Positions 1 to 20,000 of a DNA stretch of 20,000 nucleotides are shown here, in pieces. The position numbers and the translations under genes are program-made. Within the stretch, counting starts at the first letter, position 1, and every line of letters starts with the position of its first letter. The stretch covers positions 49,417-69,416 of the forward strand of contig JBFLGF010000090.1 of NCBI GenBank assembly GCA_050230475.1. The letters are read 5' to 3'. The notes beneath the pieces were generated by a model, which worked only from the letters and a program-made list of their open reading frames with translations, had not been told where the DNA came from and did not search any database. The DNA is from Ancylonema sp. (lineage: Eukaryota).

Positions 1-4
1 ATTT

Positions 5-64
5 GCCCCTCATGGAGGTCTTCATGCCCCTCATGGAGGTCTCATGCCCCTCATGGAGGTCTTA
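5..64. repeat. Three tandem copies of a 20-21 bp unit, gcccctcatggaggtct(t)cat
   Basis: Read directly. Each unit contains the small inverted repeat cctc-atg-gagg. Confidence 0.9.
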
Positions 65-135
65 GATACCTCCGGCAAAGGCAGCAGCCAATCCAGTGCA
101 TATATGTGATATGGAACTCCATTATCACCATATCC

Positions 136-236
136 CTCTCATGCAATGTATCCGATGTTACATTGCATGGTTCCGATGTGGGGTACAATGCTCTTTCATG
201 CAATGGTTCCACTGTTACGTTGCATGGTTCCGATGT
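136..236. repeat. Two imperfect copies of a repeat with 57-bp period, each with an internal hairpin
   Basis: catgcaatgta (140-150) and tacattgcatg (159-169) form a perfect 11-bp inverted repeat. The second copy, catgcaatg...cgttgcatg, is at 197-226. Confidence 0.8.
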
Positions 237-274
237 AGAGTCTTTTGTGCTTCACTCTGAAGTAAGTAGCTCAC

Positions 275-415
275 CTAGTGTCGAGGACAAGTCCAGTTTC
301 CCTCCGGCACTCCTACCAGGGGTGGTGTTAATAAACACCAAGTGTGATACCCCTGGTTACACTTGTCGCACAGCACCATCCGTTTCGGGTAGGACTGCAA
401 CCCACAAACCCGGCA
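275..415 (-). pseudogene. PHD zinc finger at the C-terminus of the Gypsy integrase
   Basis: Manual translation: CRVCGLQSYPKRMVLCDKCNQGYHTWCLLTPPLVGVPEGNWTCPRH*. This has PHD spacing, the YHxxCL-xPPL-xxVP-xGxW-xC signature and His as the last ligand. It is frameshifted relative to ORF 328..510. Confidence 0.88.
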
Positions 416-800
416 TGTGCTGTCTCCCCGCGATCATACAACTCTGGGTAGACCCTCTTGTCTCCCACCGGTATAGTGCAGTGAGCAATGTGCTTCACTT
501 GCTCTTGCATTGTCGTCCCATCTCTACCCCCAAGAACTGCTATCCCTCAGTCCCTGAGCTCCACATCCTCAAGATGTGTGGCCTTGTGATGACCTCCAGG
601 GAGCTAGCCGTTGGCCGCTTCAGCAGCACGAAGTCTCCAACCTTGAACTTCGCCTTTGGCCTATCCCACCCTCCTCCACGGACTAGCTTGTACCTCTCCA
701 CCTCCCTTTGCTGGGCAATCGCCAGGTTCCTGAATGCCAGTGGCAGAACTTCCTGAAAGATCTGGCCCCTCCTATCTAGGAACACTTTCATGGCCTCCAC
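416..800 (-). pseudogene. Integrase C-terminal (GPY/F or SH3-like) region, frameshifted
   Basis: A..NL..AQQR...Y and FKVGDFVLLKR..RPHILR, typical of Gypsy integrase tails. Confidence 0.7.
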
Positions 801-2314
801 CCCTTGAGTCTCATCAAAGACTCTCTCCTCCTCGTCCTAGATCCGAGCTTGAAAGATCGGAAAAGCATGAAGTATGGCGAGTAGCCTAGTGACTTCTGCT
901 TGGACAGCCTGTAGCCCATAGCTACGTAAGGCTGCAGTTCATCCCACTGCTCCCCACCTCCCTCAAGCAAGCACTTCCTGAGTGCTTTCTTCATTGTTTT
1001 CACCATCCTCTCCGCCAACCCGTCTGACTGCGGGTGATCCCTGGCTGCAGTCCTGTGAGTGATCTCATGGCGGGCCACGAGTGTCTCAAACTCTCCTCGA
1101 AACTCACCACCCTGATCCGCAATCACCTCCCCTGGTGCGCCATACCTAGACAAGATCTGGGACTTGAACTGGTATGCCACCTCTTCGGCCCTCTTGGAGG
1201 TTGTTGGGATGAGCTCCACCCACTTGGTGAAATGCTCTATGCACACCAGCACATATTTGTTCCCCCTCTCCGTCTCCTCCATTGGCCCCGCAAAGTCTAC
1301 CCCCCACCTGTACATAGGTCCTTTGATGGGAAGCGGCTGAAGGTTCTTCCCAGACTCTCTGAAAGCACCCTTGCCCCGAGCGCAACTCATACACTCTTTC
1401 ACCACTTTCGCCACCATCTCCACCATGCCTCTCCACCAATAGGTCTTTCCCAACAAGTCTGCTACCCTCATGACCCCAAAGTGCCCCATCTCCTCGTGCA
1501 CTTTCTTCACCAGCCCCCCCCGCTCCCGCGGTCTTGGGATCACTAGCATCCTCCCTTTCTCTCCCACCTTGTACAGGTTGGTTCCCAGCCACCTGTACTT
1601 GGTCCCCCTCCGGTACACCCGATCTCTCTCCAGAGCATCCCACTCCTCACTGTGCTTGCCAGCCTGCAGGTACTCAAGCAAGTACTTGTCAGCCCACACC
1701 TCCCCCGAGGCTGCGTCAGTGGTCTCATCCACTTTCTTATGTTCCCCCACTCCTAGTGCCAAAAGAGTCATGGCTAAAAGAGTCTCGGGTCGGAAAGTGA
1801 TATCACCCCGGTCCCAGTCAGGAACCTCAAGTCCTCCTATGGAATCCATGGGAAACCTGGAAAGGCAATGTGCGTTGCCGTTCTCTGCGCCTGCCCTGTG
1901 CTCCACCTTGAAGTCGAACTCTTGCAGCAACAAAGCCCACCTCGCCAGCTTCCCCGACAGCTTCTTTGTCGACAGGATCCACTTGATTGGCTCATGGTCG
2001 GTCACCAGTGTGAACTGGTTTCCGATCACGTACTGCCTGAAATGTGAAGTCGCCCACACCGCAGCCAAACACTCCCCCTCAAAACTAGAATAGTTATTCT
2101 CAACTGGGTTGCAACTCCTGCTGGCATAAGCCACAACATAGTCCAGCCCCCGCTCGTCCTTCTGCCCAAGGACTGCCCCCATCCCCTTCTGACTCTAGTC
2201 AGTAGCAAGGTAGAAGGGCTTGCTCCCATCTGGTCGCCTCAGCACCCCAGCCGAACACAGCGCCTCCTTCAGCTTTAGGAAGGCCTCCTTCTGTTCCCCC
2301 CCTCACTCCCAGAC
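788..2314 (-). pseudogene. Gypsy RNase H and integrase core
   Basis: RNase H: LATD*S..GMGAVLGQ, VVAYASR, YSSFEGECLAAVWA, LVTDHEP. Integrase: H-EEMGH...CMSC zinc finger; VDFAG, ADQGGEF, GLAERMV (D-D-E). Confidence 0.95.
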
Positions 2315-3200
2315 CTATCCTTTCCGCAACAGCTTGTTGAGCGGAAAGGCAATGGTGTTGAAGTGCGGTACAAACTTGCGATAGTAGCTGAATAACCCCG
2401 AAGCCCCCCTTAGCGATGACAAGTTTGTAGGTGCTGGTAGATCCTTGACTGCCTTCACCTTCTCCTCCTGCGGCTGCAACTCTGCTGCAGTGATCTTGTG
2501 CCCCAGGAAGTCGATGCTCTCCACAGCAAATAGACACGTCCCTGGGTGCACATTCAACCCCGCTGCTCTGAGTCGTCTGAAGACCTCCTGCAGATGCTCC
2601 AGATGCTCCTCCAGCGTGCTTCTCCACACGATGATGTCATCGATGTAACACCTCGCAAATGTCAGCCCCCCCAGAATGTGGTCCGTCTGACGCTGAAAGT
2701 AAGGTGGCGCGTTCTTCAGTCCGAACGGCACTACGCACCACTCCCACAGCATCCGCCTGGCTCCCCAGAATGTTGTCTTGGCACGGTCCCTCCTACAGTA
2801 GTGGCATCTGATGGTACCCCGACCTCAGATCCAGCTTGCTGAAGATCTTTGCCTCCTTCATGACATCGAAGATGTCCTCTATCAATGGCAGCGAGTACTT
2901 GTCGACGGCGTCAGTGCATTGATCGGCCTGTAGTCCCCGCACTTTCTGAAGTCAGTGTAGTTCCCCTCATCGTCCTTCTTCTTCACCACCACAGTAGCCG
3001 AAGCATACTTGGTCTGGACTGATTTCCTTGATGAACTTCAGCTTCTCCAGCTTCTCGCACTGCTTCTCCACAAACTCCCACTCCTTTTCCCCGAGTTTCT
3101 GCGGCGGCCTGTAAACCCTCCCCTCCGACACCCCCCCGATGCTCATTGGCTCTCCCTTGAACTGCTCCAGATCCTCCATGCTGTAAGCAAAGCGACAATT
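2315..3200 (-). pseudogene. Gypsy reverse transcriptase, several frameshifts
   Basis: PFGLKNAP, YIDDII, IDFLGH, GLFSYYRKFVPHF. N-terminal VYRPPQKL...EKQCEKL is in ORF 2967..3374. Confidence 0.95.
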
Positions 3201-4391
3201 GTTCTCCCTCAGCAGCTCCAACACCAGCAGCTGGTCCCTTTCCTTTACCCCCCCCCCACCCTTGATTTTCTTAAAATTCTCAAAAAAAACAGGTTTTCGG
3301 TTTAAGATCCCACCCTTAGTGCTCACTCCTACCCCTGAGTGCTGGCTACCGTTCCCCCCAAACTCCCCCTGCACATCATTTTTTTTTTTGTTTTTTTATG
3401 ATTTTCTGAAGTTTTCAGTGGGGCCCCAACCTCCCCACCCCCAACCTCCCCCAACCGCTTCCTCTCCCCCAGAGCAGCCATCTGCAGCTCTGTAGGCCTC
3501 AGTTCTGCTCCAAATCCAGAGTGCAATAGTGCTATGGATATCTCTTTCCCCCATCTATGGTTTTTTAAATCCATGACATCCCCCCCTAAAACCCCTGTCT
3601 GAAAATCCAAATCTTGGATTTCAGATCTGGCCAACTCCAATTTACACTCAGAGTAGTAAAAAGGGCTGGAAATCTTTGATATTGAGTTTCTGAGTACACG
3701 AAATGGCTTGTTGAAATTTCCTACTCTATCCTCACTACCAGCTCGAAAACCTGCTTCTGGTTCCAAAACCCTAGGGTTTAACAGCACTTTTTCTGAATTC
3801 TGGACAGAATTCTGGCCTTTTTGACTGCCTGAGATACCTAGCTCTCCTTGGCTGCTAACTTGTCCAAATTCTGATCTGATTAGTGATCCTGGCTCCTTAG
3901 ATACTTCACTACCAGATCTCAAAGTTACAGATTTTTCTGGATGGAGGTGCAAAAACGCCCCATCAGCATCTCCCTCAGCTATTTTTTTGTCGGGAAGGCC
4001 AGCTGGCAATGATAAATGTTGCCCTGAGCTTCTCCCTTCGAATATGGCTGCACCCAGCTTGTTTCCTGGTTCTTCTTAATGCCCTCTAGCTGATCCCAAA
4101 TTTTCAGCTTAGCATCGAAGTCTAGCAGCGCGCGCACCACTTTTTGTGCCTCTGCCATCTCCCCTCCCCCTATGAGCCCAGCATACATTCCGTATGCTGG
4201 AGGGCTGTCCTTTTCGATTTCACTCCTCTGGTTTTCACCATTGTGTTCCTGATCTCCCCAGCTCCATTCTCGTGAGCCATTGCCAGTTGCCCCCAACCGT
4301 GCCCCAACCGCACCCTCCCCGCAGTCCCCCTTGAACTGCGGCTGGCCCCCCCCAACCCCTGATCTTTTAGGGGTTGGGTGGCAGCGCCTCC

Positions 4392-5400
4392 CTAGCTGAT
4401 CATGCTGGCTTCCCACAGAGCCCCCAGCCACCTCATGGTGTTGCCCTCCATGCATTTCCCCAGCCTCTCCGCTCGCTGCTTCGCGGAAACCACCTCCGCC
4501 CGAGTGGTCCCCTCAGGGAACCCCAACAGCTGCTCTTTCTCACCCACATCTGGCTCCTCCCGCCTGTGGGTGTTGGTGTTGTACACCTGCCCCTCCCCTG
4601 GGCTCCCATCCTCCTGGGTTCTGAAGGCATAGCTCCCCTGAAAGCTGACGATTGTCGGCATCAGGATCCTCTCCTCTCCTCGGAAATTCCTCACGACCTG
4701 AGGTGGGAAGTCGGTGAAAGCAGGTGCCTTGGGGATGTGATACTCCCTCAAGATCTCCCTCAGTGGTGGGCTTGGCTGCAGATCCTGCGGAATGGCCTCT
4801 TGCAGCTCATCCCGGTCCATAGCGTTCGTCCAACAGTAGCGCAGCCGATGGCTGGCTGCCCCCAACCCCCCTGCGTCCAGAACCACCCCCAACCCAATAA
4901 AAGACTCTATCAGGCATCTTTGCCAACTCCCCGGGAGAGGTATTTTCCAGAAAGTAGACTGGCGATCTCTCCTGGTGGTGCTGCAGCCACCCAAGGATGC
5001 GCATCAAGTCGTAGAAATACTGAAACCGCTTGTCTGCGTACCCCTCCTGCTTGCCTCCCCTGCTGATACTCTGGCACTCCGAGCCAGCCCCCACTATGTC
5101 GACCTCCCCGTTTTGCGCAATGAGATTCACCAGCGCCATTTCTCCGATCAGCCCCACATCCTGTGGCAGCCTCTTCTCCCAGCCAATGAATGCCCCCCTG
5201 TTGATCTGGCCTGGGTACTCAAGGATCAGCTTCTCGATCACCCCCTCGTTGATCCGGTTGGAGATGAGGTCTCTCTCGGCGCACGACACCAGCCGCACCC
5301 TCAACCCTGCCGCCAAGGCTGTTCTAGTGGGCCCCAGACCGATGCCACTGAAAAGTTCGACAATATGCACTCCCTCTTCTGGTGCCTCCTCCCTCAGGCT
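4392..5400 (-). pseudogene. DNA (cytosine-5) methyltransferase domain, DNMT3-like, inside the Gypsy polyprotein; one frameshift near 4935
   Basis: Motif I ELFSGIG (~5341-5364), II AERD, III QDV, IV GSECQSIS (Cys at 5074-5076), VI FLENT (~4941-4953), VIII AASHRLRYCWTN (~4821-4856), IX EKEQLLGFPEGTT, X QRAERLGKCM. Motifs are in the unpermuted I-X order. Confidence 0.9.
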
Positions 5401-6385
5401 CACGACCCGTGTGTTGATCGGAGCTGCTCCCCTCACTGGTGGTCCCACCCACTTCCAGGATCTCTCGACTCTGACCTTTCCCAGCAACCTCTCCCTTGCC
5501 TTCAGCAGCCTCAAAGCTGCAGCCGCTCGCCGTGCTGCATCCGCCTGCTGCACTGCTACCACGCGAAGATCTGCCTCACTAGGCTCACCAGTCAGCTCCC
5601 CCAACCGCGGTTGGGACTAACTTTGCTGTGCGCTCTTCACAGCCACCCCCCCCACCATCACCCTAGGGTCAGGTTGCACCACACTCGTGTGCTTCCCCCA
5701 TCCCTGAATATGTCCCTCCTCCCCCTTTCCCAGCATCTGCTGCGGTTGGGGGCCCCAGCCGCGGTTGGCCCTCCTCCAGCTGCGGTTGGGTGGTTGCCCC
5801 CCCCTCCCTTGGGCTATCTCCCAACTCTATGACCGCCATGCCCTGAAATTTCTCCCAGGCTTCCCCATTACCCCCCCCATACCCCTCCTCAGCCACCCCG
5901 TACTTTTTCCACCCATCTCCTCCTCCAGCAAGAGGTTGGCCTCATCGAGCGCCACCCTTCGAGCTATTTCCACATCCATATCCCACCCCCGTGCCGCATG
6001 CTCCTTCATCTGCTCCAATAAAGTGAGCAGTGCCAGATTCTGCACCTCCCCTTCCCACTCTAACTCCACAACCCCCTCACTCTCACCCCCCCCATATCCC
6101 CCTCCTCAATCTCCTGCCACTCATATGAAGTGTCACCGTCCGCATCCTCGAATTGACCCTCCTCAGCCTCTAAGCTGTAGAGATCAGACTGCATATGAAC
6201 CTCTCTTGACCACTCCCTGTGGATCCTACCCAACGCCATGGCCTACATAGGCAGTGTTGAGCGCAGTGCCCTGCACTCCTCCTCTGTCATCCTCCCCTGA
6301 GCCGGTACAACCCCTCTGATCTTTCCCCCCCCCTCAGCCGCTGAGCGATGGTAGTCTACTCTCCATTTGAAAACCTCTACCCAAC

Positions 6386-6832
6386 CTATACCCCCCCAAT
6401 AGGCCCAATAACCTCCATCCCCAGTAACACGTCGTAACACTCAGTGTCCACTACGAAAGCTACCTCATTGTACGTGGTCTCGTACCGTGTTCCAGCAGCC
6501 AGGGTGAATCTCATCTTCTCCCTTGTCATGCGCTGACCCGTCGCCATCTTCCTTGTTGCCGAAACGAATGACACCCCCACTGTCAACTGCCCCTCTGTGA
6601 GCCCCATACGTCTAGCCATCCGAGGGCTAATCATTGGTTTAGTAGCCCCCGAATCCAGAATCACCATGCCCAATGGGGATATGCCATTCACCACCAACTC
6701 CGTGTTTTTCACTGGAAGTGTAGCCACACTCCAGGGTCCCTTCTGCCCTCCCCCTTCTACCCATCCCGCGTGTAGTGGATCCCCCTCCACTAATGACCTC
6801 AACCCCCCGTACTGATCCATATTTTTCTGCAA
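6386..6832 (-). pseudogene. Gypsy aspartic protease
   Basis: VILDSGAT active site (~6641-6661) and a downstream YDVLLG motif. Confidence 0.9.
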
Positions 6833-8061
6833 GACCTATGCTTGTAGCTTGTGGTTTCTTTCTAGGGTTTTAAACTTCTCTGTCAGCATGTTTGCTAGCA
6901 CCTCCCCTTGTGTTCCCAATCCCCTCCCCATGATCTGAATCATCTTTGCCTGGTCTATTACCGCCCCTGAGTCACCTAGCTTCTTGAGATCCCCTACCAC
7001 CTCCAACCTCCCCGTCATAATTGGCATCGTCTCTGCAAGTTTCCCTCCTGGCCTCCTGGAGCCGCTGCCTCTAGTTCCACCAGCCTCTCCCTCTCCTTGG
7101 CATTATAAACCACCTCCTGTACCCCCTCCTCCGCCACCTCTATTGAAACCGGTTCTCGGCCGTATCTGCCGTACTCAACTCGCCAGTCATAAGACCCGAA
7201 TTGTAGATCGGTTGCCTCTTGCAATGCTCTACCCGCTGCAGTGTCCATTCCTGGAGGGTATCCCATAGGAGGGTATCCCTCACAGTACTACCCTCCCCGA
7301 CAAACACCGCTAGAGCACCCGTCGCCATTGCTGACGGAGGCGTTGTCACCCCTGTGACGCTCATCCCTGGTCGGATCTGAACTGACGGCCCTCTATCTAC
7401 CCTCTCTGAAGGGTAGATAATGTCGCGTGGCTGAGTGTTGTGTGCGAAAATAACTATCCTCGGTCTCCCTCGTCCCCTCCTCTCTGCCGCCGTCGCTTCT
7501 GCTGCACGGACCCCAGTTGCGTGCACTGCCCTCTCTGCTGCCTCTTCCTGCTCCAGACGTTGCCCTACGTTCTCGATCACACGCCTCAAATCAGGTGCCC
7601 CCGGTGATCTCGGTCGTGTCCCCCCTTTAGCTGCCCCCGCACTCTGGGGTCCCAGCTTGCCTTCCAGGCTGCTACCCTCTCCCCTCTCCCTCCCCTCTAG
7701 CCTCTCGGAAGTCAGAACTCCCTCCTCCAGCCCGCCCTCCCCTAGCGCGTGGCGCCATCATCTTGAATGGTGGCCTGACGTGCACCACTGGCACGTCCAT
7801 GACAACCCACATCTTCCCCACGTAGAATCCCAGTTCCACTCCGTTTACATCACCCTCCTCAGCCACCCCCATTGCCAGCATCTGGCGTGGGTAACCAGGG
7901 CTGAAGAACTCTTCATCTCCTCGGCCCAGCCTCTCCTCAAACTCTGGAGTTCTCCTTCCTGGTGGCCCTGGTACCGCCATGGCCAACCCCTGACGTGGCC
8001 GCTTGGCATCAGGTGCCCCCCCGGGGTTGTAGTTCTTGGGGCGAAGCTCCGGGTGCTTTGC

Positions 8062-9386
8062 CTAACACTGCTCCTCGGTGTGGTTCTGTTTGTCACAAAA
8101 CCTGCAAGGTGCCCCCTCCGTCATGTGCACCCGTGGCATGGACATGGCCACCCCTCTCGCCGTCCCAAATCTGGCGGCGAAGGGTGCTTTCATACCCTTC
8201 CCGCGTCTTGCTGTTGCGGTCTTGAGTGCCTCCCTCAGCCTCCCCGCCGTCTCCTCCCTCGTCCCCGTGGGACAGTTGGCAGCGCGGTGCCCCAGTCTGT
8301 CACAAGTGAAACACTTGACAAGGCTTTTCCCCCCCATCCCTCCTCCTCCAGTCCCACCCCCTCCACTCCCAACCCCCCCTCCTCCTCCATTCCCATCCCC
8401 CCCCCCTCCTCCTCCCTCTCTCGGCTTCCCTTTCCCCTCCTCCCGTCCCCCTCCCTCCTTTTCCCCCTCTTTTTGACGCGGCAACAGGCCAAACATCCGC
8501 AACTCCGCATCCCGCGACATCTGCGCTCTCTCCTGGGAGGTGGCAATATCTCTGACATCTGCCATACTTATCTTGGGAAGTCCTCCTCCATCCCGGCGCT
8601 GCTCCTCAGCCCGAAGCTTTGGGCCGACCACCCCCCGCAACCCTCCCAGCAAACAATCCTCATAAAAGCACGCTGCCTGACGCGCGCTGACCATATGTGG
8701 AACGAGGTTAACAGTTATCCGGAACAAGTCCTCGTAGATGGAGTTTGAGGTAGCTCCTGCTGGTGGTCTGAAGTTCTGGAACTCCCCTAACCATTCTGAC
8801 CCCGCGGTTGCAAATCGCGTCCTCAATCGCTGGAAGAATCCCTTGAGATCAGAGCTTCCAGAGGTACTGCTGGAGGCCCCTGAAGCCCTGAGGTGAGTCG
8901 CATCAGGTGCCAACTCGCCTTCTGCCCATAGTATACGCGCCAGACCACTCTCACTATTTCCACCACTTGCGCTATTGCCAACGCTGGGTTATCACGGTCA
9001 TGCGGGTCAATGGACCAGCGGTAATAATCTAGAACCAATCTTGCCTGCCCCTCTACGTGGCCTGACATCCGCTTGAGGACCTCAAACTGACCATATTCCC
9101 CACTAAGGAATTTTTGGAGATTACGCTTCTCTGCCTCCCACATATATTTCATATTTTGGATAAATTGGCGCTGCGCCACCCCTCCTCCTCCTGAATACTT
9201 GGGCACAACCAAAGTACTCTCCATCTCTGCCTCCTCCTCTCAACCCGCGAAATACACCAACGAATAAGCCGCAAACATAGGTACCGGAGGTACAAAAGCC
9301 GGTGGTTGATATATGACAAGCTGAAAATTCTCCACTTCGGCCTCTCCCTCTGAGTTTGCCGAACCCTGAGAATCAACTGATCCTGC
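8062..9386 (-). pseudogene. Gypsy gag, main part, with two CCHC zinc knuckles
   Basis: CFTCDRLGHRAANC and CRFCDKQNHTEEQC (CX2CX4HX4C), preceded by a Gly-rich linker. Stop at 9240 and a frameshift near 8900. Confidence 0.85.
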
Positions 9387-9833
9387 TTTTAGCAATGTTA
9401 CGTGATAGGTGTGCACGATCGTGTTAATCTTTCCGTACAAGGAACTTCGTCTCTCAAAGATGATCAATGACAAGTATAGTGTTGGAAGAATTATTATTGA
9501 ATGGTCGGCATCGTGTAGGTATACCACGATGCCTCATCCAAAACAAGAATCTACAAAGCGTGCCGACGGTCGTATCGACGGACCGTCGGCCTATCAAAAC
9601 ACAACAACAGTCAGATCCTGACACCGGCACATGCCGGACAGTCTGACAAGACATAGTCTAGATTCGGAACCATCTAGACCGCACGTGCTACAAACCGGCA
9701 CAACGAAACGTCATATTCGGGTGCCCGGACATAAGTCCGGCCCCTCAATATAAGCACACCCTAGGAACCGGTGTTACACTAACAGTCTGGACTAGCACAC
9801 TTGCAAACATGGCTATCCGATATTATTCCTACA
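9387..9833 (-). repeat. Copia 3' LTR (447 bp)
   Basis: Direct repeat of 14997-15469. Begins TGTAGGAAT on the minus strand. Confidence 0.95.
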
Positions 9834-9842
9834 CACCCCCTC
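9834..9842 (-). promoter_or_regulatory. Copia polypurine tract
   Basis: GAGGGGGTG lies immediately before the 3' LTR on the minus strand. Confidence 0.85.
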
Positions 9843-10199
9843 GGATGCCATGCCAAGTTTGGCATTGAGTCAGCACCAAGGGACTACCCTATCTACAGCT
9901 AAGTCATGGCGAAACCATGACATACGTAATATGAATGGCAACACATATGCCAGAATTCATGAACAACTGACCACTCTAGATGCAAGCAGATCTGCAACTT
10001 TTCAGGTGTCCTTAAGTGTTTTCAGGGCAGAAAAAAGAGTGGGGTGACTTAGCTGGATAGGCGAGCGTAGAGAGCCCTCCACAGGTGCATTTTGCAAGAA
10101 GAATAACAGAACATACACCCCCTGCCAAACATAGCATGGCAGCCGAAAATCTCCTAGAACTTAATGTGCACCCCCATTTCAGTGAACCCTCCCAAAACC

Positions 10200-11673
10200 T
10201 ATAGACTTTCCGTGTCTGTCAAGTAAGACTTGTGGAAGAGCCTTAGTGAACTATCGGCTGGTTGATTGGCCCCTGCCAGAGATACACATACTTCAGCCTG
10301 CCAGTTTTGTGACACTCTCTCACCACCCAGTGGTACACCACAACAACATTGAAATGCTTGGCCTTCTGGCGCTGGACTGGGTTCTAGATCATTGAGAGTG
10401 CGGCTGTTGAGTCACTGTAAACTGTAATTTAATTAGGGAGTTTGAGCTCATGCAGGAGCGACTTCAGGTAACAGTATTCCTTAGACACACTACAGGCAGC
10501 AATATATTCAGCCTCTGCTGTACTCTGTGCGCGACTGTAGACTCTGTGTTTCTGTGACTTCCAGCTCAATGCAGTTCCCCCAACAGTAGTGACCCACCCT
10601 GTGACCGACTTCCCACAGTCATACTGCAGCTATTCCAACTAGCATCACACCAACTAGCATCACAACCTCTTCCGCGCCTCACGTAGCATATTCCGTGATC
10701 CACTCTTCCTTTTAAATATCTAAACAGTTGGTGTAAGGCTTTGATGTGAGCAGTCCCAGGATTCCCCATGTGTTTTGCCAGTACCCCCAGTGCATGCGCA
10801 ATATCCGGTCTAGTGTTTTTCATTGCATAAATGAGTGACCCAATTTTTCCCCGGAATTCAGTTATCTGTACAGGTGTAGGGGGAGTTAGAGGTTCATCTT
10901 CTTGGTGAAATGTCAGTCCAGGTGGTAAGGGTAGTTTTGTAGGGTTACAGTTTGCCATGCCAAAACGTTCCAAAACCTGCTTTATGAACCCTCCCTGATG
11001 CAACGTGAGCACCCCTTGTTGTCTGTCCCTTTTCACTTCCACCCCCAGGATATGGGTTAGGGCCCCAAGATCCTTCATTTTGAATTTCCGAGATAGTTCC
11101 TGTTTGAATGCTTTAATGACCATGGTGTTAGGACCAACTATCACCTGATCATCTACGTGTATCCCCACTATGATCCGTGACTGTCCTGTGCCCCTGGTGT
11201 ATATGCATGTGTCCATAATGCACTGTTTGAACCCTATAGTGAGCATGAAGGTTGTGAACATCTCACCCCAGACCTTGCTACTCTGTTTCAGTCCGTACAG
11301 TGCCCCCCTCATTCTCAAAACTTTTCTCTCTGCCCCTCCCTCTATCTCCATAAATGGTGAAATTTTCATATATACTTCTTCGGCCAGTCTTCCATGCAAG
11401 AAAGCAGTCACCACGTCCATCTGTTCAATTTCCCAACCCTCTTGATTCGCAATAGATAGTAGAATGAGATATAGAGGTACTATCTACTACAGGTGCGAAT
11501 ATTTCATTATAATCAACTCCTTCTTGTTGTAGAAAACCCTGAGCGACCAGTCTGACTTTATATACTTTCAAGGGTTCCCGTGGGTGTGTATTTTGTTTTG
11601 AATACATATTTGCACCCCACAGCCCTTTTACGTGGTGGAAGTTCACACCCTCGAAAGTGTTGAATTCCCCCAA
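10200..11673 (-). pseudogene. Copia reverse transcriptase and RNase H
   Basis: RT: KVRLVAQGFLQQEGVDYNEIFAPV, MDVVTAFLHG, LYGLKQSS, HVDD, TRPDIA. RNase H: WCDASW, SWKSQK, STAEAEYIAA, YSDSTAAL, KAKHF. Frameshifts and stops present. Confidence 0.95.
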
Positions 11674-12374
11674 GCTTTTCAGCTCCTCCTGGATAGCAAC
11701 TAACCACTGATACTAGTGTGGCCTCGTCATGGCCAGGTCAGCGTCAAAGGGTCGGAGGAGTCAGCAGACATGGACACCATGCAGAATCCAGGGTCAGAGG
11801 GGCCGTTGAAGCCTGTGAAGAAGCATGTTGCTTCCCAATCGTCGTCCTGAATGGCTGCTTCCAGCGCCTGGTCATCGAACTCCTCTCCATCATATCAAAA
11901 GACATCCCCAAAGTGGGCAAAGTTTGCCCTCCTCCTTCCCATTACTCTCTCAGCTATGCTCCCAGCATTCACCCCTTGCCCCCCCTCTTCATCCCCTCCT
12001 TGAACTTCCTCCTCCTCGCCTGCCACACCTACGTTGTTGACCCAGATTGGCTGTCAGACAGGCTCAATCACAGCGATGGGGACCTCAGCAGCTGGTGGTG
12101 GCGGAAACTGTAATGCTGGGATCTGGGCTCTTGGGTTGTTGTGGGCGGCTGCTGCTGCTAGCATTGCTGCTGACTGCTGCTGGTACTGCTGCTGGCGTTG
12201 CTGCTCTCACTGCTGCTTGCCCTGTCACCCCTCCAGCCTTAGGCTCATCATCTGTGTCGGGGACCGGCTGGAGAAAGTGTTCATCTGCTTTGGCCTCGAC
12301 CTGGGGAGCTCTCCCCCCCATGAGTCTCGGGTACCCCGGTACTTCCTCAAAGACACGGACGTCTGTCCGCACCA

Positions 12375-13286
12375 TCACACCGGCTCTGAGCGGGTCGAAG
12401 ATGTTGTAACCAGCTTGATCTGCTGCCAGCCCAATGAAACCCCAAAAGCAGTCCTGGCAGCATACTTGTCCCCTTGTTTATTTTTATCATGCCCAACTTT
12501 CAAATACTGCACTAGGCAGCCAAATGTGTGACTTCTGTTCAGTTTGATTTGGCGTCCCGTCCACTTTTCAATAGGTATCCCCCTTGTCAATGAACTAGTG
12601 GGGTAGCTGTTCCTTAGCCAATTTGCATGCATTAGTGCCACATCCCAGTATGATTTAGGCAGTTTAGACCACATCAGCAAACATCTCATCTTCTCCATCA
12701 GTGTTCGGTTCAGCCTTTCACACATACCGTTCTGCTGAGGACTATAGGGGGCAGTCAGTTCATGTTTGATGCCTTTATCCTCACAATAGCCTTTCCACTC
12801 CTTGCTGGTATATTTCCCTCCTCCATCTGTCCTGATCGACTTTAAACGGCAGTCCTGACTCAACCTCTAGTTTCTGTCAGTGATGCGCGTTTGACTGAGA
12901 GCATCGCTCTTGTGCTTGAGAATAGATACTGTTGACAGTCTAGAATTGACCTCTATCCCTGTCTGAGCATAATCAAACCCTCCGTGCATTGATCTGACAC
13001 ACACCAAAAGGATCAGATCTAGATGCAACCTCCCCATTTTTGGCATAGTGGTCACATCATCGCTAGCCATAGCATGCCCCCTCTGTCCCATTTTCCCCAT
13101 ACAGCAGATCACACAATCCTTGACCACAGTCAACTCTTCCTGACTCAGTCTCGGTATGTCCCCACGTCTGGCCATGTTTGACATGGCTGGTATACCAGGG
13201 TGACCCAGCTTGCCATGCGAGAGCACTATGGACAGATTTGCTTGCAGACCAGATGAACCAGGCATGATGATAGATGCATGCAGCAA
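12375..13286 (-). pseudogene. Copia integrase
   Basis: HGKLGH...CVIC zinc finger; LHLDL, IRTDGGGKY, PQQNGMCERLNRTL; FGCLV. Confidence 0.93.
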
Positions 13287-13339
13287 TGACAGACCATTCC
13301 TCTGCCTGCTGACATCAGCCCATTTCTGTCCATTTTTAG

Positions 13340-14782
13340 TCAGTGGACGTGCAGAGCAGTGAGAGGGACGACGAAGAAGGAGTCGTCGTTCTTCACTCGA
13401 ACGTGCACGAAGCCTGTCCCCTTGACCTTGTGGGGCGTGCCATCAGCCGTGTGGATGAATGAATGGTGCATCAAGACGTTGGTGTCGTACTCGACGAAGT
13501 GGTCTTTGTTTGTGAAGACGTGATCGGTCGAGCCTGAATCAAGCCACAGATGCGAGCAATCAGTTCCAACTGCCATAGCAATTCGTGCATCAAATGAGAA
13601 TGCTGCATAAGCCAGGGATTCGGATGCATCAAAAGGTGTGTCTGAACGTGCAGCAAGTCGAGCCTCAGCTTGGTCACGAAGATTAGAATCAGGTGCAGCC
13701 AATGCCAGGTCAGATCTACGCTTCATGCATTCTACCAATGTGTGTCCAAGCTTATCACAGTATCTGCATTTTGGTTTCGGACTGCCACTTCCCTGGCCAG
13801 CCGATCTTCCCCCTCCCCCTTGCCGTTGGTGTCCACACTGCGACAGCTTGTGGCCGATCTGGTTGCAGCCATGGCACCTCATTTGCGGACGTGTAGGGCA
13901 GTCCGATTTTAAGGTGGCCATACTGGTTGCAGCCGTAGCACTGAAGTTCTCGTCAGGTCGCGACTTCCGGGACCGCCACTCCCACCTGGTCGACACTTGG
14001 GCCAGCTCCGGAGCTGCCCAAGTAACCCCCTTTTCCCACGAAATTGGCCTGCTGCCCTCCCGGCAACGCCCCTCTCCTCTTCCGGTCGTTGCAGACCTCC
14101 CGTCGATCGCCAGCTGACAAAGTGCTGACGGCAACGGCCTGCGGGATCGTGAAGAGTGTTGGCGCACAAACTGCCCAAGACATCACACTCTCCCGCGCGC
14201 TGTAGCGAGTGTTGAGGGAATTTCAGAAAGTTGATCGTCTGCTTCGCAAGCTTGACTGGCTCTCCCAGATGCCCTAGACGATAGTGCAGCTCCTGAAGCC
14301 GCTTAACGTAGTCGCTCAGGTCCTCCGCCTCTCCCATGATAATCGCCGTGAGCTCAGCCTCAGCGTTGGCGATCTCAATGGCTCCCTGAATGTCGTAGAA
14401 GGCTTTCAGGGCGTCCCACATATCCGCTGCAGTCTCGCAATTTCGTACGTGCGTTAGCTCCCCCGTCTGGAGGTGTTTGACGATGTACGCCATTGCAGCG
14501 ATATTCTTCTTCGACCAGACCTCTCGAAGGAGAGTCTGTCGACCGATGAGCTGGGTGCGTGCCGTGACCGTTCGAGCGACGTCCGCAGCATCCAGTGCAT
14601 CGAGCTCGTCCTGCGTGAGTAGTGGAGACACGACAGGCCGCTTGCCTCGGGGATTTGCTCCAATCCATGACAATGTCATGCAACTCCTTGTCAGCCAGAC
14701 CGAACTTAATTTTAAAAGCCCAGCCCTTGTAGTCTGCTCCTGTGAAGACCGGAATGTATGACTTTTCCGTCATGTTAGGCAA
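13340..14782 (-). pseudogene. Copia gag (two CCHC knuckles) and protease
   Basis: IPVFTGADYKGWAFKI N-terminus; CETAADMWDALKAFY; CHGCNQIGHKLSQC; CRYCDKLGHTLVEC; WLDSGSTDH. Frameshifted across three ORFs. Confidence 0.92.
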
Positions 14783-14982
14783 CAGCTAGATTCTTTTGAT
14801 GATCGGCTCTCAGCTGCTTTCTTGAGCGTGTTTCGTGCAGCGCAGCTCACACCTCAGTCACTGGCAGCGCAATTCGAAGGATTACGTGCAGTACTTAATA
14901 ATCCCAACCTCAGAGTCTCTTTGCAGCGAATCGCGTGGAATGCCTGTAGGTTATTGACACAGCGTCTTTACCTAGACCGCCT

Positions 14983-14996
14983 GTGGGCCCATAACC
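14983..14996 (-). promoter_or_regulatory. Copia primer-binding site complementary to the anticodon half of tRNA-iMet
   Basis: GGTTATGGGCCCAC abuts the 5' LTR. This is the half-tRNA priming type of Drosophila copia, Ty5 and Volvox Osser. Confidence 0.9.
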
Positions 14997-15469
14997 TTCT
15001 AGCGATGTTACGTGATAGGTGTGCAAGATCGTGTGAATCTTTCCGTACAAGGAACTTCGTCTCTCAAAGATGATCATTGACAAGTATTGTGTTGGAAGGA
15101 AGGTTGGAAGAATTATTATTGAATGGTCGGCATCGTGTAGGTATACCACAATGCCTCGTCCAAAACAAGAATCTACAAAGCGTGCCGACGGTCGTATCTA
15201 CGGACCGTCGGCCTATCAAAACACAAAAACAGTCAGATCCTAACAACGGCACATGCCGGACAGTCTGACAAGACATAACGTCTAGACTCGGAACCATCTA
15301 GACCGCACGTGCTACAAACGGCACAATCGCAACGTCATATTCGGGTGCCCGGACATAAGTCCGGCCCCTCAATCCTCCTAGGAATCCTACCACCGGTTAC
15401 ACGGACAACAACACTAACTAGTCTGGACTAGCACACTAGCAAACATGGCTATCCGATATAATTCCTACA
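14997..15469 (-). repeat. Copia 5' LTR (473 bp)
   Basis: Direct repeat of 9387-9833 with scattered substitutions, a short duplication near 15100 and a divergent block at ~15374-15415. Confidence 0.95.
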
Positions 15470-15473
15470 CTTG

Positions 15474-15579
15474 CCCTGGAATCAGATATATTGCTCGATG
15501 ATTCACTACCACCACCGCCTCCTCCACTATCCACTCTCCGCACCAAACGTCTGTTCTCGTCGCGGGACGAGGCAGACAT
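15474..15579 (-). pseudogene. N-terminus of the Gypsy gag, separated from the rest by the Copia insertion
   Basis: ATG at 15579 gives MSASSRDENRRLVRRVDSGGGGGGSESSSNISDSR, which joins in frame across the TSD to AGSVDSQGSANSEG at 9386. Confidence 0.8.
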
Positions 15580-16877: not shown

Positions 16878-17850
16878 AAGTATTAAATATTAAAAATCCC
16901 AGCCACGTCCAGAATTAAAAGTTATGCCCGGTAAAAGTAACAACCTAAGTGCCGAGGCCTGTCTTGGTCCCAAGAACGCAGTCTATAATCAGCCGATGCC
17001 GATATCGGGTAACTATGAATACACATCATTCTTAAATGTTGGGACTTTTAAGGATATGGTGTAGTGTCGCCAAATACGTCAACGGGGTGAAGGTACGTAC
17101 CGTACTGGCCATACATAATGACCCGGGTTGTCAAAAACGAATTCATTTTAGCTAATGAACTACCATACTACCCACCCGCGCACCCAGTATAACATTTACC
17201 AAACTTCTGAATAATGTGTATTATCTGACAACCCACATTATGGAATGACAAATATTTGAGGGTCAATTATGTATACGGAATATGATTGATTTGGAATACT
17301 GTTTTACCCAAAGTCAATTCAGCAAACATGCTCTACTTCACAACTGGATATCCATCCTTTACAAAAACATTTTTTTCGAGGTAGGTACGCTAGAAAACGG
17401 TTCACATACCGGTTCACCTATCACTTCACTTCTCGGTTCACATATCATTCTGGCATGAGCCTGATTCCACAGATTGACATGTTCCAATCATTCCAAAACC
17501 CAAGTGCTTATCGATGCATTCAAGCTTCTGAGGGCAACACAAATCTCTCACACCATTCAATGGCAATGCCGGCATTCCGTAAAAGGCATCCTGAATAAGT
17601 GGTTCAACCTCATGTATCCATCGCTTACAGATGCAGATCTTGATCTTGACCCCTTCACCGAGCTTTGCAATCAATCACACAATTTTTCTGACTCCTCTCA
17701 GGGCTCGTTACCAGACTACGGCCGCTAATGGATTCTGGCACATATGTTGCAACCGACGGACGATATGAACATATAAGTTGAAGCAACAGGCATGATGGAA
17801 GCAGTACCCCCTGGCCTACTTCCCTGTGAATCTCGTCCGCGTCCCTCTCT

Positions 17851-18042
17851 CTAATAATCCTCCACCAATGTCAGCAGCCCCTTCACCTCCGCCTTGAGTT
17901 CCTCGTACTTCTGTTGAATCGGCGAAAGGCGCGTGTTGGTTTCGCTGGCCGGGAGTTTCTTTTCGTAGCACTCCACCATCACCTGGTGCTTCTGAAGAAT
18001 GGCGCCCACCTTATCCTTCTCCTTTGCCACCAGAGCTTGCAC
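17851..18042 (-). CDS. RPN1: Ribophorin I (OST subunit 1), terminal exon
   Basis: CAG acceptor; VQALVAKEKDK...LLTLVEDY*; resembles the plant RPN1 cytosolic tail. Confidence 0.88.
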   Translation of the reverse strand: MQALVAKEKDKVGAILQKHQVMVECYEKKLPASETNTRLSPIQQKYEELKAEVKGLLTLVEDY

Positions 18043-18156
18043 CTGGGAAAAACAACGGCAAAAGAAAGATGTTTTGTGTCCGACCGTCCGACTCCCTCCT
18101 TCCCTCCGTCGGTACCCCCTTTACCAACAAACCTGTGGACATCAGACGATCCTCAC

Positions 18157-18381
18157 CTTGGGAAGCATGGGAGGAGGGTTGGGGGCCGATTCTAGAGTTG
18201 CCAGAAGGGCCTTCATGTCGTTCCCAGACTCTCTCAGGGCCTCCTCTGCACTTCTGCGCGCGGATTTGGCAGCCTCAATGTCCCCCGTCCGGCTCAGTGC
18301 GACCGTGGCCCCGTCCAGCTTGTCTGCGATGGAGGAACGGATGGCCACAAACTTCTGGAGTCTCTGAGTGGCGTCCACGGC
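18157..18381 (-). CDS. RPN1: Ribophorin I exon
   Basis: AG/GT bounded, 75 codons; ALSRTGDIEAAKSARRS resembles the plant LSRTGD motif. Confidence 0.9.
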
Positions 18382-18726
18382 CTGGAAAAGAAATGCGGAC
18401 AGAGGAGTGGGATTCAGTCGGGCGGACAAACGCAACAGAATGACGGGATGAGTAACGACAAAGCATGGCATGAGGGTGAAGTAATGTATCAAACGAGAGA
18501 AGGAGATGGACATGAGCATCACGAGTGCACACTCAATGTTGAGCCCGACCTCTGTTGGGCTCAACATTGAGCCTGCCTCGACACCCTGCAGACTGCTTTG
18601 AGGTTGTTGCTGGGAGGGGCAGGATAGTAGTTGGAAATCTGTGTGTGTACCGTCTGAAACCGTTTCTGGTTGACCTACGATTGCCTTCCACCTCGTAAAA
18701 ATAGGAAGTAGCGTCGGAAGGGAGAA

Positions 18727-18773
18727 CACAAAACAAAAAAAAAAAAAAAAAACAAAAAAAAAAAAACAAAAAA
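18727..18773. repeat. Intronic A-rich low-complexity tract
   Basis: Poly(A) interrupted by single C residues. Confidence 0.85.
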
Positions 18774-18798
18774 GGGCAGATCACGACGAGATAGGCAC

Positions 18799-19050
18799 CT
18801 GCTCGTTCTGCATCTTTGTGTGATACGTTGCCGTGTTCTTGGAGATGGTCAAGTCCGTCCTCGAGTAGGCGATGAGCGCGAGGAAGAAGAGCAGGAAGGC
18901 GCCCACCAGAAGAAACGGCTCCACCAGTAGGGCCGCGGAGGTGAAGGAGTAGGAGACCTGGAAGAACTGGGTGGAGTGCTCGGGGATGACGTTGCGCTTC
19001 TTCAGGACCACCACTGGCCGTCCCACCGTGTCAAGGTTGGTGTATTTCAC
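18799..19050 (-). CDS. RPN1: Ribophorin I exon including the transmembrane helix
   Basis: AG/GT bounded, 84 codons; VKYTNLDTVGRPVVVLKKRNV...EPFLLVGAFLLFFLALIAYSRTDLTISK. Confidence 0.95.
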
Positions 19051-19357
19051 CTGAAAAAACGGAAGAGGGCAAGGGGATGGGGGCAGGGAGGGAGCGTATG
19101 GACTTATGCAGTAGGGGCACAGGGTATATGAGGTGAGGAAATTGAAGTTTATGCATGGGTGGAACATTGGATGGCCAGAAGATGGACCAATCGCGGACAG
19201 ACTTTGACATCACTTCATCCTCTGGAGGGGGCGACGGCAGAGTCAATGAGACTTGAGAGTTGTGCGATCTGGAACGAGATTTGCAGAGAATGGACATTGG
19301 TGGTAAACATTACGATGAGTTCTTGCCAGTCGAGCGGCGTTGAGGTGTCAGTCTTAC

Positions 19358-19426
19358 GTCTTGATACTGCTCTGTGTCAAAGGGGACGATGGCCTGCAAG
19401 TCCCTGGACCCCTCTGGCAACACCAC
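19358..19426 (-). CDS. RPN1: Ribophorin I exon
   Basis: CAG/GTAAG bounded, 23 codons; VVLPEGSRDLQAIVPFDTEQYQD, containing the conserved LPEG. Confidence 0.92.
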
Positions 19427-19745
19427 CTGCACAAAAACTTGAGAGGAGTCTTTAATGATCCGACCCATCTGCCCTCACCTTACACTCTTTACCACAAACT
19501 GCGCCACACTGCTTTTCTCAGATTCTTTCTTTGAACTACTCCAGTGCTATGTCTCATGAATGCTCCGCAGGATCTGTAAGCGACGCAGCCAGTCGACCTC
19601 CAATCTCTCCCGTGAAAGACTTGAAGTTGTCCAAGCATCCCATGACTGGCTGTGATGAAGACAACAGAGCAGTGCGATGTCTTTCAACCTAGATTGACCT
19701 CCGCCTACTAGCTTTCATCAGGTGCCAGGTGTCAGCGCAACGGAC

Positions 19746-19925
19746 CTTCACCACCAGCTCCTCGATGACGACATCCAGAATGGGTGTGCCATACGTGGCA
19801 TTCACCACCCTTCTTCCGTCCAGGCCGCGGAATACCAAGTCCTCGAGGGGGACGCTGTATCCGAGGGTGAATGTGATGGACCACCCCCCGAGCAGAGGGT
19901 AGCGGGGCTCAAACTCCAGGTCCGT
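19746..19925 (-). CDS. RPN1: Ribophorin I exon; upstream exons lie beyond the window
   Basis: AG/GT bounded, 60 codons; LEFEPRYPLLGGWSITFTLGYSVPLED is the ribophorin I signature. Confidence 0.95.
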
Positions 19926-19934
19926 CTGGACACA

Positions 19935-20000
19935 GAGAAAAAAAGAAAGAAGAAGGAGAAGGAGAAGGAGAAGGAGGAGGAGGAGGAGGAGGAGGAGGAG
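19935..20000. repeat. Intronic (GAAGGA)n/(GGA)n microsatellite, forming the polypyrimidine tract on the minus strand
   Basis: Read directly, next to the acceptor at 19926-19928. Confidence 0.9.

What the first reader, a model, noticed from the sequence alone, without database searches (positions are those of the whole stretch)
275..5400. Reader-writer pair in one mobile element: histone-binding PHD plus DNMT3-like MTase
Seen: both domains lie in the same pol region. Known: animal DNMT3A/B couple a PHD-like ADD domain that reads H3K4me0 to the catalytic domain. Inference: this element may have convergently assembled its own chromatin-targeting and self-methylation kit, choosing a chromatin state and then marking the new copy. 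This combination is the best candidate here for an undescribed system.
Basis: inference. Interest (0 to 1): 0.85.

Follow-up and report, generated by a model that had tools for sequence, protein, structure and literature searches.

The report
PHD-tipped Gypsy-DNMT3 retrotransposon, dead copy
A broken copy of an old green-plant-lineage jumping gene carries both a DNMT3-type DNA methyltransferase and a PHD finger predicted to bind histones; the two usually travel together in its family but likely work as separate tools, and in several intact relatives a likely leaky stop codon puts them on different protein products.

Summary
Both domains are real. The minus strand holds a decayed Ty3/Gypsy element, gag-PR-DNMT-RT-RH-INT-PHD. 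It has a DNMT3-like domain (5388-4407, one frameshift, catalytic Cys kept) and a canonical PHD finger (433-278), about 4 kb apart. It belongs to the Gypsy-DNMT3 kind (KnitGypsy-Dnmt3, 2018). The pairing is inherited and family-wide: 70 of 120 RH-INT relatives hold both domains in one protein, as do 32 of 34 assessable DNA loci (many near-copies).

An ADD-like coupled pair is not supported. The PHD is not an ADD domain and sits about 1,100 aa from the enzyme. The DNMT takes two positions in Pol, and each domain occurs without the other. In 24 of 28 assessable loci (two families) a stop in TMV-like context (stop-CAR) lies between gag-PR-DNMT and RT-RH-INT-PHD. The window's DNMT frame ends in TAG GGA GGC plus stable hairpins, a possible readthrough signal.

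Likely mechanism: the PHD steers integration and the DNMT methylates cDNA, independently; both steps are untested. This scan found the same kind of element before on other DNA. I found the PHD rule, the chlorophyte clade and the stop in none of the texts searched; Fig. 4c of the 2018 paper was not visible.

The parts
275..433 (-). PHD finger at the C-terminus of integrase. C4HC2H variant: the last zinc ligand is His, as in its 10 closest relatives. First Cys at 415, stop at 277-275.
   Evidence: Pfam PHD E 2.9e-11; PDB hits; last-ligand His in 11 of 118 PHDs, all in the window's own clade
434..860 (-). Integrase C-terminal region between core and PHD, broken by frameshifts and stops
   Evidence: tblastn with P0178/P0170 in three successive frames
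857..1504 (-). Integrase zinc finger and catalytic core
   Evidence: Pfam Integrase_H2C2 1.2e-13, rve 8.6e-11; own profile
1844..2194 (-). RNase H
   Evidence: Pfam RT_RNaseH 8e-32
2471..2980 (-). Reverse transcriptase, two frameshifts
   Evidence: Pfam RVT_1 8.4e-17; three frame segments
3273..4318 (-). Long DNMT-RT linker with no relative found; open stretches of 177 and 248 codons in different frames
   Evidence: ORF list; no Pfam hit; no blastp hit among 345 session proteins
4319..4394 (-). First in-frame stop after the DNMT (TAG GGA GGC, 4394-4386) followed by two hairpins (4385-4345, 4341-4319); candidate type III readthrough signal (inferred)
   Evidence: fold z -3.73, 0 of 200 shuffles as stable; rank 2 of 179 windows along the element; context named in PMC13517186
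4407..5388 (-). DNMT3-like C5 cytosine methyltransferase. Motif I ELFSGIG, motif IV GSECQ (Cys at 5076-5074), motif VI EN, AHR-type motif (SHRLRY), GF and GKCM at the end; one frameshift at 4927-4913.
6407..6697 (-). Aspartic protease
   Evidence: Pfam Asp_protease_2 1e-7; own profile
8062..9239 (-). gag region with CCHC zinc knuckle(s)
   Evidence: Pfam zf-CCHC 1.1e-4; translation

Best explanation
This is a decayed copy of a Gypsy-DNMT3 retrotransposon whose integrase ends in a PHD finger predicted to tether integration to nucleosomes with an unmodified H3 N-terminus, and whose DNMT3-like enzyme likely methylates the element's own cDNA or new copy as a separate step. Shown: anatomy, DNMT3 affinity, the invariant catalytic Cys, family-wide co-occurrence, two DNMT positions, single-domain variants, and an in-frame stop between DNMT and RT in several intact relatives. 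Inferred: after protease cleavage the PHD stays on integrase while the DNMT is a separate product. Where the stop exists, readthrough would make the DNMT at Gag-PR level and INT-PHD at a fraction of that, so the particle would carry DNMT in excess. The window's own TAG GGA GGC plus hairpins would be such a site. The two modules would be kept together because both help a new copy land in, and look like, methylated non-promoter chromatin. They would not form an ADD-like allosteric pair.
For: Architecture shared with intact P0178/P0179. Catalytic Cys in 136 of 136 aligned family DNMT domains, motif VI Glu in 135 of 136, at 41% mean identity. Of 120 relatives found by RH-INT: 109 carry a PHD by my profile (110 with P0207), 75 a DNMT and 70 both. 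Of 80 DNA loci, 34 could be scored for both: 32 have both, 1 lacks DNMT, 1 lacks PHD. The DNMT lies before RT (type A) or between RH and INT (type B). Type B is one clade in the RH-INT tree (100/99) and in the DNMT tree (99). Intact PR-RT-RH-INT-PHD Pols without DNMT nest inside type B. Intact loci L001, L003 and L162 read gag-PR-DNMT | TAG CAR YYA | RT-RH-INT-PHD with a single stop. 24 of 28 type A loci keep a homologous stop-CAR, 19 of them exactly 113 or 120 codons before RT. CAR YYA is the TMV readthrough consensus, about 10% efficient (PMC2754532, passages). PHD: Gly/Ala/Pro/Thr and never Trp two residues before the His in 118 of 118; Leu before the third Cys in 93; Asp after it in 109. 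This fits the H3K4me0-type description in PMC3241642 (passages); that the cage Trp sits two residues before the His is recalled, not from a call.
Against: No activity is shown. The one family member tested (KnitGypsy-Dnmt3 domain in yeast) gave no methylation, called inconclusive by the authors. Motif IV has Glu in place of the usual Pro in 87 of 136. CG depletion of the element (o/e 0.51) is no stronger than that of the DNMT-less Copia next to it (0.56). The acidic residue before the first Cys, typical of K4me0 readers, is D/E at -3 in only 50 of 118, so K4 discrimination is unsure. The stop is not universal: P0178/P0179, K. nitens P0196 and P0227 run from DNMT into RT without one. The 28 loci are only two families, many of them near-copies. 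The window's TAG rests on one decayed copy and was noticed post hoc; another frame is open across it, so it may be a decay product. A small residual DNMT-PHD distance correlation remains after removing RH-INT (partial r 0.13).
Confidence: 0.6

Rival explanations
1. Coupled reader-writer: the PHD contacts or recruits the DNMT in the integration complex, so that H3K4me0 binding licenses methylation of the new copy and its flanks, as ADD does for DNMT3A.
For: Very frequent co-retention. In type B the DNMT is next to INT, so a DNMT-INT-PHD product is possible. Weak residual DNMT-PHD correlation (partial r 0.13). The PHD is of the cage-less type.
Against: Not an ADD domain. About 1,100 aa and three enzymes lie between the domains in type A. 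They lie on different sides of a stop in L001/L003/L162. Intact elements with only one of the two exist, and the PHDs of DNMT-less elements keep the same signature residues.
Confidence: 0.15
2. The DNMT domain acts mainly as a DNA-binding, base-flipping or shielding module, or against host enzymes, rather than as a methylase of the new copy. The PHD is an ordinary integrase tether unrelated to it.
For: Glu for Pro in motif IV in 87 of 136; no activity in yeast for the K. nitens domain; no extra CG loss against the neighbouring Copia.
Against: Cys in 136 of 136, motif VI Glu in 135 of 136, SAM-binding motif I and the AHRxR motif all kept. 35 of 136 keep the canonical PC. Related SymbioDIRS-Dnmt3 domains are active. 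Human DNMT3B also failed in that assay.
Confidence: 0.15
3. The DNMT works in trans or for self-restraint: made in excess from gag-PR-DNMT, it methylates genomic copies or rival elements and so limits transposition, with the PHD only steering insertions.
For: The stop placement implies DNMT excess over RT/IN. De Mendoza et al. list host-beneficial slowing of transposition as an option.
Against: In type B and in P0178/P0179 the DNMT is on the Pol product. The K. nitens methylome is ordinary.
Confidence: 0.1

Closest known systems
KnitGypsy-Dnmt3 / 'Gypsy-DNMT3' of Klebsormidium nitens (de Mendoza et al. 2018, PMC5890265; parts 1-2 of 7, passages, sections 10-11, Fig. 4 legend and peer-review passages read; figures and supplementary figures not seen)
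   Same: Gypsy Pol with a non-rearranged DNMT3-like domain. K. nitens protein P0196 (KFL_009030040) has the same PR-DNMT-RT-RH-INT order, and both are type A on the trees. The DIRS-like A-coding-B-A-B repeats described there are seen in relative L063.
   Different: The text never mentions a PHD (0 hits; Fig. 4c may show one). It places the DNMT in the RT ORF, whereas several relatives here and perhaps the window have a stop between DNMT and RT. The window's clade has a His as last PHD ligand. The family reaches far beyond K. nitens.
EpiLTRs (Fernandez-Moreno et al., bioRxiv 10.64898/2026.05.21.726589; abstract, sections 3 and 7, passages of 8; supplements closed)
   Same: LTR elements that combine a histone reader with a cytosine DNMT (and an adenine MTase).
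   Different: Their reader is a chromodomain and their DNMT is sister to DNMT4; the preprint calls it distinct from Gypsy-DNMT3. No PHD finger is mentioned. The window has no adenine-MTase-like domain.
PHD-bearing Gypsy elements of Chlamydomonas (Gypsy-7a_cRei, REM1; PMC9940879, PMC6673714, PMC8557442, passages)
   Same: PHD as an accessory domain of a Gypsy polyprotein, proposed to steer insertions.
   Different: No DNMT reported. The Gypsy-7a legend lists the PHD between RH and INT, as in outgroup P0279; here it is C-terminal to INT.
Animal DNMT3A/B ADD-MTase pair (mechanism recalled)
   Same: DNMT3-type catalytic domain and a zinc finger predicted to read unmodified H3.
   Different: Canonical PHD, not ADD; not adjacent to the enzyme; attached to integrase; separable.

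Membership tests
Gypsy-DNMT3 (KnitGypsy-Dnmt3 kind) | Ty3/Gypsy domain order PR-RT-RH-INT | tested here: met
Gypsy-DNMT3 (KnitGypsy-Dnmt3 kind) | Intronless, non-rearranged DNMT3-related domain with key residues kept | tested here: met
   Motifs in linear order, Cys and Glu kept; DNMT3 best by profile and fold
Gypsy-DNMT3 (KnitGypsy-Dnmt3 kind) | Common descent with the K. nitens elements | tested here: met
   K. nitens P0193/P0196/P0280 are among the RH-INT hits and share a side of the type B split with the window (18 rows, 100/99). No host DNMT3 was available as outgroup, so a single capture is not proven.
Gypsy-DNMT3 (KnitGypsy-Dnmt3 kind) | DNMT in the same ORF as RT | tested here: inconclusive
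   The window is decayed. Nearest intact relatives P0178/P0179: yes. L001, L003, L162: separated by one in-frame stop.
Gypsy-DNMT3 (KnitGypsy-Dnmt3 kind) | DIRS-like terminal repeats A-coding-B-A-B | tested here: inconclusive
   The window ends 274 nt after the PHD. Full pattern in L063; B-B in L009, L036, L043, L060, L072, L079; A-A in L010; of 50 loci examined.
Gypsy-DNMT3 (KnitGypsy-Dnmt3 kind) | Methyltransferase activity | not testable with these tools
   Also unshown for the type element
ADD-coupled DNMT3 | ADD domain directly N-terminal to the MTase | tested here: not met
   Canonical PHD, no ADD hit, 4 kb downstream
EpiLTR | Chromodomain + DAM + DNMT4-sister DNMT | tested here: not met
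   No chromodomain or adenine-MTase-like hit in the window; the DNMT is DNMT3-like
H3K4me0-type PHD finger | No aromatic cage; hydrophobic residue before the third Cys | tested here: met
   closest PDB fingers
H3K4me0-type PHD finger | Acidic cluster before the first Cys | tested here: inconclusive
   One Asp at -3 in the window; D/E there in 50 of 118
H3K4me0-type PHD finger | Binding to unmodified H3, abolished by K4 methylation | not testable with these tools
   Needs a peptide assay

The most novel reading that the evidence does not exclude
An ancient retrotransposon clade spanning chlorophytes and streptophytes carries a DNMT3 and a PHD-tipped integrase as standard equipment and sets the dose of its methyltransferase by translational recoding. 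In several streptophyte-type families a leaky stop places the DNMT on the abundant gag-PR product, making it a particle-packaged cDNA methylase, while INT-PHD is made only by readthrough. The chlorophyte-type clade moved the DNMT into Pol and often adds a third, amino-methyltransferase-like domain behind the PHD. The window's family would have swapped a type I (CAR YYA) for a type III (UAG-G plus structure) signal.
Probability: 0.35. Interest if true: 0.7.

Novelty: new variant of a known kind. Interest (0 to 1): 0.45.

Why it matters
What retrotransposon-borne DNMTs do has been open since 2018. Intact elements such as L001, L003 and L162, plus natural DNMT-less and PHD-less relatives, make it directly testable: is the enzyme packaged in particles in excess, does it methylate cDNA, and does the PHD set the landing site? 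The gain is the family-level picture (PHD as the rule, two DNMT positions, a conserved recoding site), not this locus.

Tried and rejected
Complex prediction of the P0178 DNMT (aa 295-645) with its PHD (aa 1722-1783): no verdict, score 0.00, alignments not used by the tool; it says nothing either way.
No own genome is held and no read data were obtained, so copy number, expression and the window family's consensus at the TAG are unknown.
Viral origin of the DNMT: best viral contigs matches are weak (E 1e-9 or worse, 24-39% over short stretches; 80 of 182 shown), far below the DNMT3 match; rejected.
Protein atlas: only generic C5-MTase clusters (0.94); no answer for the linker.
A TAG CAG CCA at 3857 fits CAR YYA but is out of frame with the 248-codon open linker stretch; judged chance.
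A TAA at 3398-3396, 139 codons before RT, lies near the family's stop position but lacks CAR; not excluded as the boundary.
No downstream structure at the stops of L001, L003, L010 (z -0.1 to -0.6), as expected for type I.
CG depletion as a sign of self-methylation: no difference from the Copia neighbour.
Order of acquisition: PHD-less P0227/P0219 fell among PHD-bearing rows in the fast trees but next to the outgroup without support (27/47) in the careful tree (bootstrap not settled, 70 of 136 rows, long rows P0264 and P0272 left out). PHD loss versus DNMT-first is unresolved.
Literature searches without a description of PHD+DNMT3 Gypsy or of this stop. PMC6317226 has 0 hits for PHD or methyltransferase. 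PMC2774666, PMC6338049, PMC11982613 and bioRxiv 2021.11.30.470311 (passages) added only background.
Full report
ANATOMY. The minus strand from about 9240 to 275 is one Ty3/Gypsy element. It holds gag with a CCHC knuckle, protease (6697-6407), a C5 methyltransferase (5388-4407), RT (2980-2471), RNase H (2194-1844), integrase (1504-857) and a PHD finger (433-278) that ends at a stop at 277-275. It is dead: 9 stops lie in the segments aligned to intact relative P0178, with at least six frame changes, one inside the DNMT and three between the integrase core and the PHD. A Copia element (9386-15482) abuts its 5' side and Ribophorin I exons lie at the right end, so the host is a eukaryote. No genome is held. 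A streptophyte host is inferred from named relatives only.

THE TWO DOMAINS. The PHD passes Pfam's cut-off (E 2.9e-11) and is closest to the DPF2, ATXR5, KDM5B/KDM5A PHD1 and related fingers. It is not an ADD domain. In 118 family PHDs (of 136 rows) the residue two before the His is Gly 102, Ala 8, Pro 7, Thr 1 and never Trp. The residue before the third Cys is Leu in 93 and the one after it Asp in 109. This fits readers of unmodified H3 as described in PMC3241642 (passages). The acidic residue before the first Cys is present in only 50 of 118, so K4 discrimination is a prediction of moderate strength.

The methyltransferase has its motifs in linear order. A profile of 25 relatives ranks DNMT3A (2e-24) over DRM (7e-15) and M.HhaI (2e-10), and a confident model of relative P0012 matches DNMT3C/A/B first. 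The catalytic Cys is present in 136 of 136 aligned domains, but the preceding Pro is Glu in 87 and Pro in 35. The window reads SECQ where its nearest relatives read WECQ.

THE FAMILY. A profile search found 781 proteins at E<=0.001, of which 150 were listed. A search with the window's RH-INT frame found 202, of which 120 were listed. Of those 120, 109 carry a PHD by my profile, 75 a DNMT and 70 both. Seven of the 11 without PHD end before its position, one has a PHD by Pfam, and three lack it (P0219, P0227, outgroup P0281).

Two layouts exist. Type A (PR-DNMT-RT-RH-INT-PHD) includes the window and intact P0178/P0179. Named proteins with the DNMT behind the protease come from Klebsormidium nitens, Closterium and Mesostigma; a Coleochaete RT-RH-INT-PHD protein groups with them. 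Type B (RT-RH-DNMT-INT-PHD) includes named proteins of Chromochloris, Pleodorina, Tetrabaena and Cymbomonas. Type B is one clade in the RH-INT tree (100/99) and in the DNMT tree (99). DNMT distances follow RH-INT distances (Mantel r 0.59, 73 elements), so the enzyme was inherited with the element. Without a host DNMT3 outgroup, one capture with relocation cannot be told from two captures.

Among 80 metagenome loci (best 80 of 471), 34 could be scored for both domains and 32 have both; many are near-copies. Exceptions are real. P0212, P0244 and P0250 are intact PR-RT-RH-INT-PHD Pols with no trace of a DNMT and nest in type B. K. nitens P0193 has PR directly before RT. P0227 has a DNMT and no PHD.

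A STOP BETWEEN WRITER AND READER. Intact loci L001, L003 and L162 each read gag-PR-DNMT, one in-frame TAG followed by CAA TCA or CAG TTA, then a 1,047-codon RT-RH-INT-PHD frame. A second family, 58% identical downstream, has TAG/TAA CAA CCC at the same place. Of 28 type A loci with DNMT and RT start, 24 keep this stop: 19 exactly 113 or 120 codons before RT, and 5 displaced by indels. CAR YYA is the TMV readthrough consensus, with about 10% efficiency (PMC2754532, passages). This explains the many database proteins that end after the DNMT or begin just before RT.

The stop is not universal: P0178, P0179, P0196 and P0227 are continuous. Type B loci L033 and L035 have an in-frame TAG 208 codons before RT, which puts their DNMT on the downstream product.

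In the window the first stop after the DNMT is TAG GGA GGC, the type III context quoted for CIRV in PMC13517186 (passages). It is followed from +10 by two hairpins (z -3.73, 0 of 200 shuffles; rank 2 of 179 windows). Type III hexamers make up 10 of 277 stop triplets in the element. This is one decayed copy, noticed after the fact, and another frame is open across the site; I put it at about even odds.

MECHANISM. Shown: co-occurrence, separability, two positions, and the stop in relatives. Established knowledge: Gypsy Pol is cut by its protease, and readers at the integrase C-terminus, such as chromodomains, steer insertion (PMC6673714, passages). Inferred: the PHD tethers the integration complex to nucleosomes with a free H3 N-terminus, away from H3K4me3 promoters. 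The DNMT acts on cDNA in the particle, in excess where the stop exists; cDNA methylation was proposed for the DIRS-borne DNMTs in PMC5890265. Against: the K. nitens domain was inactive in yeast (inconclusive), and the element is no more CG-depleted (0.51) than the DNMT-less Copia beside it (0.56).

WHAT IS KNOWN. Gypsy-DNMT3 was described in K. nitens in 2018. PHD-bearing Gypsy elements are known from Chlamydomonas. Elements with reader, DNMT and DAM are the EpiLTRs of a 2026 preprint, with a chromodomain and a different DNMT. In searches I found no text that reports the PHD as the rule in Gypsy-DNMT3, the type B clade, or the stop. Fig. 4c and the supplementary figures of the 2018 paper (too large to read) and the preprint's supplements were not visible and may bear on this. 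Earlier notes of this scan report the same kind of element on other DNA; a word search for the readthrough idea returned none.

VERDICT. Observation confirmed; interpretation partly supported. It is a dead member of a known kind with two features not found in print, a PHD-tipped integrase and a likely recoding site that separates writer from reader in part of the family. Interest 0.45.

Noticed in passing
P0342, P0104, P0109, L013:4683-5318 and other type B relatives: 46 of the 120 relatives carry behind the PHD a ~210-aa domain that models confidently (pLDDT 88) as a class I SAM-dependent methyltransferase. Adenine DNA MTases M.BseCI and M.TaqI are among the top but weak fold matches (E 4e-4 to 2e-3); Pfam does not detect it. 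A short beta-rich (Tudor/SH3-like, by eye) segment lies between PHD and this domain. The window lacks both. Whether it equals the DAM of the 2026 preprint was not tested.
   Followed up: partly
window 9386-15482: Copia element on the minus strand with two LTRs about 88% identical (9386-9834 / 14996-15470), gag, integrase and RVT_2, broken. GGTTATGGGCCC next to the 5' LTR looks like a half-tRNA-iMet primer site (recalled motif). Its LTRs are not CG-depleted (o/e 1.1) although its interior is (0.56).
   Followed up: partly
window 17850-20000: Exons of a host Ribophorin I gene on the minus strand (Pfam 4e-15 and 3e-16).
   Followed up: no
window 7395-7494 (minus): The most stable 100-nt fold in the element (z -5.6) lies between gag and protease, where a gag-pro recoding signal might sit; not examined.
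   Followed up: no
window 1-241: Short tandem repeats just 3' of the PHD stop (three 20-nt units at 1-61; a 49-nt pair at 136-184/193-241), where relatives begin their B terminal repeat (about 180 nt after the PHD).
   Followed up: no
L161, L162, P0300: An intact eukaryotic Gypsy-DNMT3 element sits in a bacterial genome assembly labelled as a cyanobacterium; most likely contamination of that assembly.
   Followed up: no
P0109, P0075, P0114, P0201, P0252: G-patch domain between DNMT and integrase in some type B Pols.
   Followed up: no
window 3273-4318 and 5450-6290: Both linkers flanking the DNMT are about 500-600 nt longer than in P0178/P0179 and match nothing held.
   Followed up: partly
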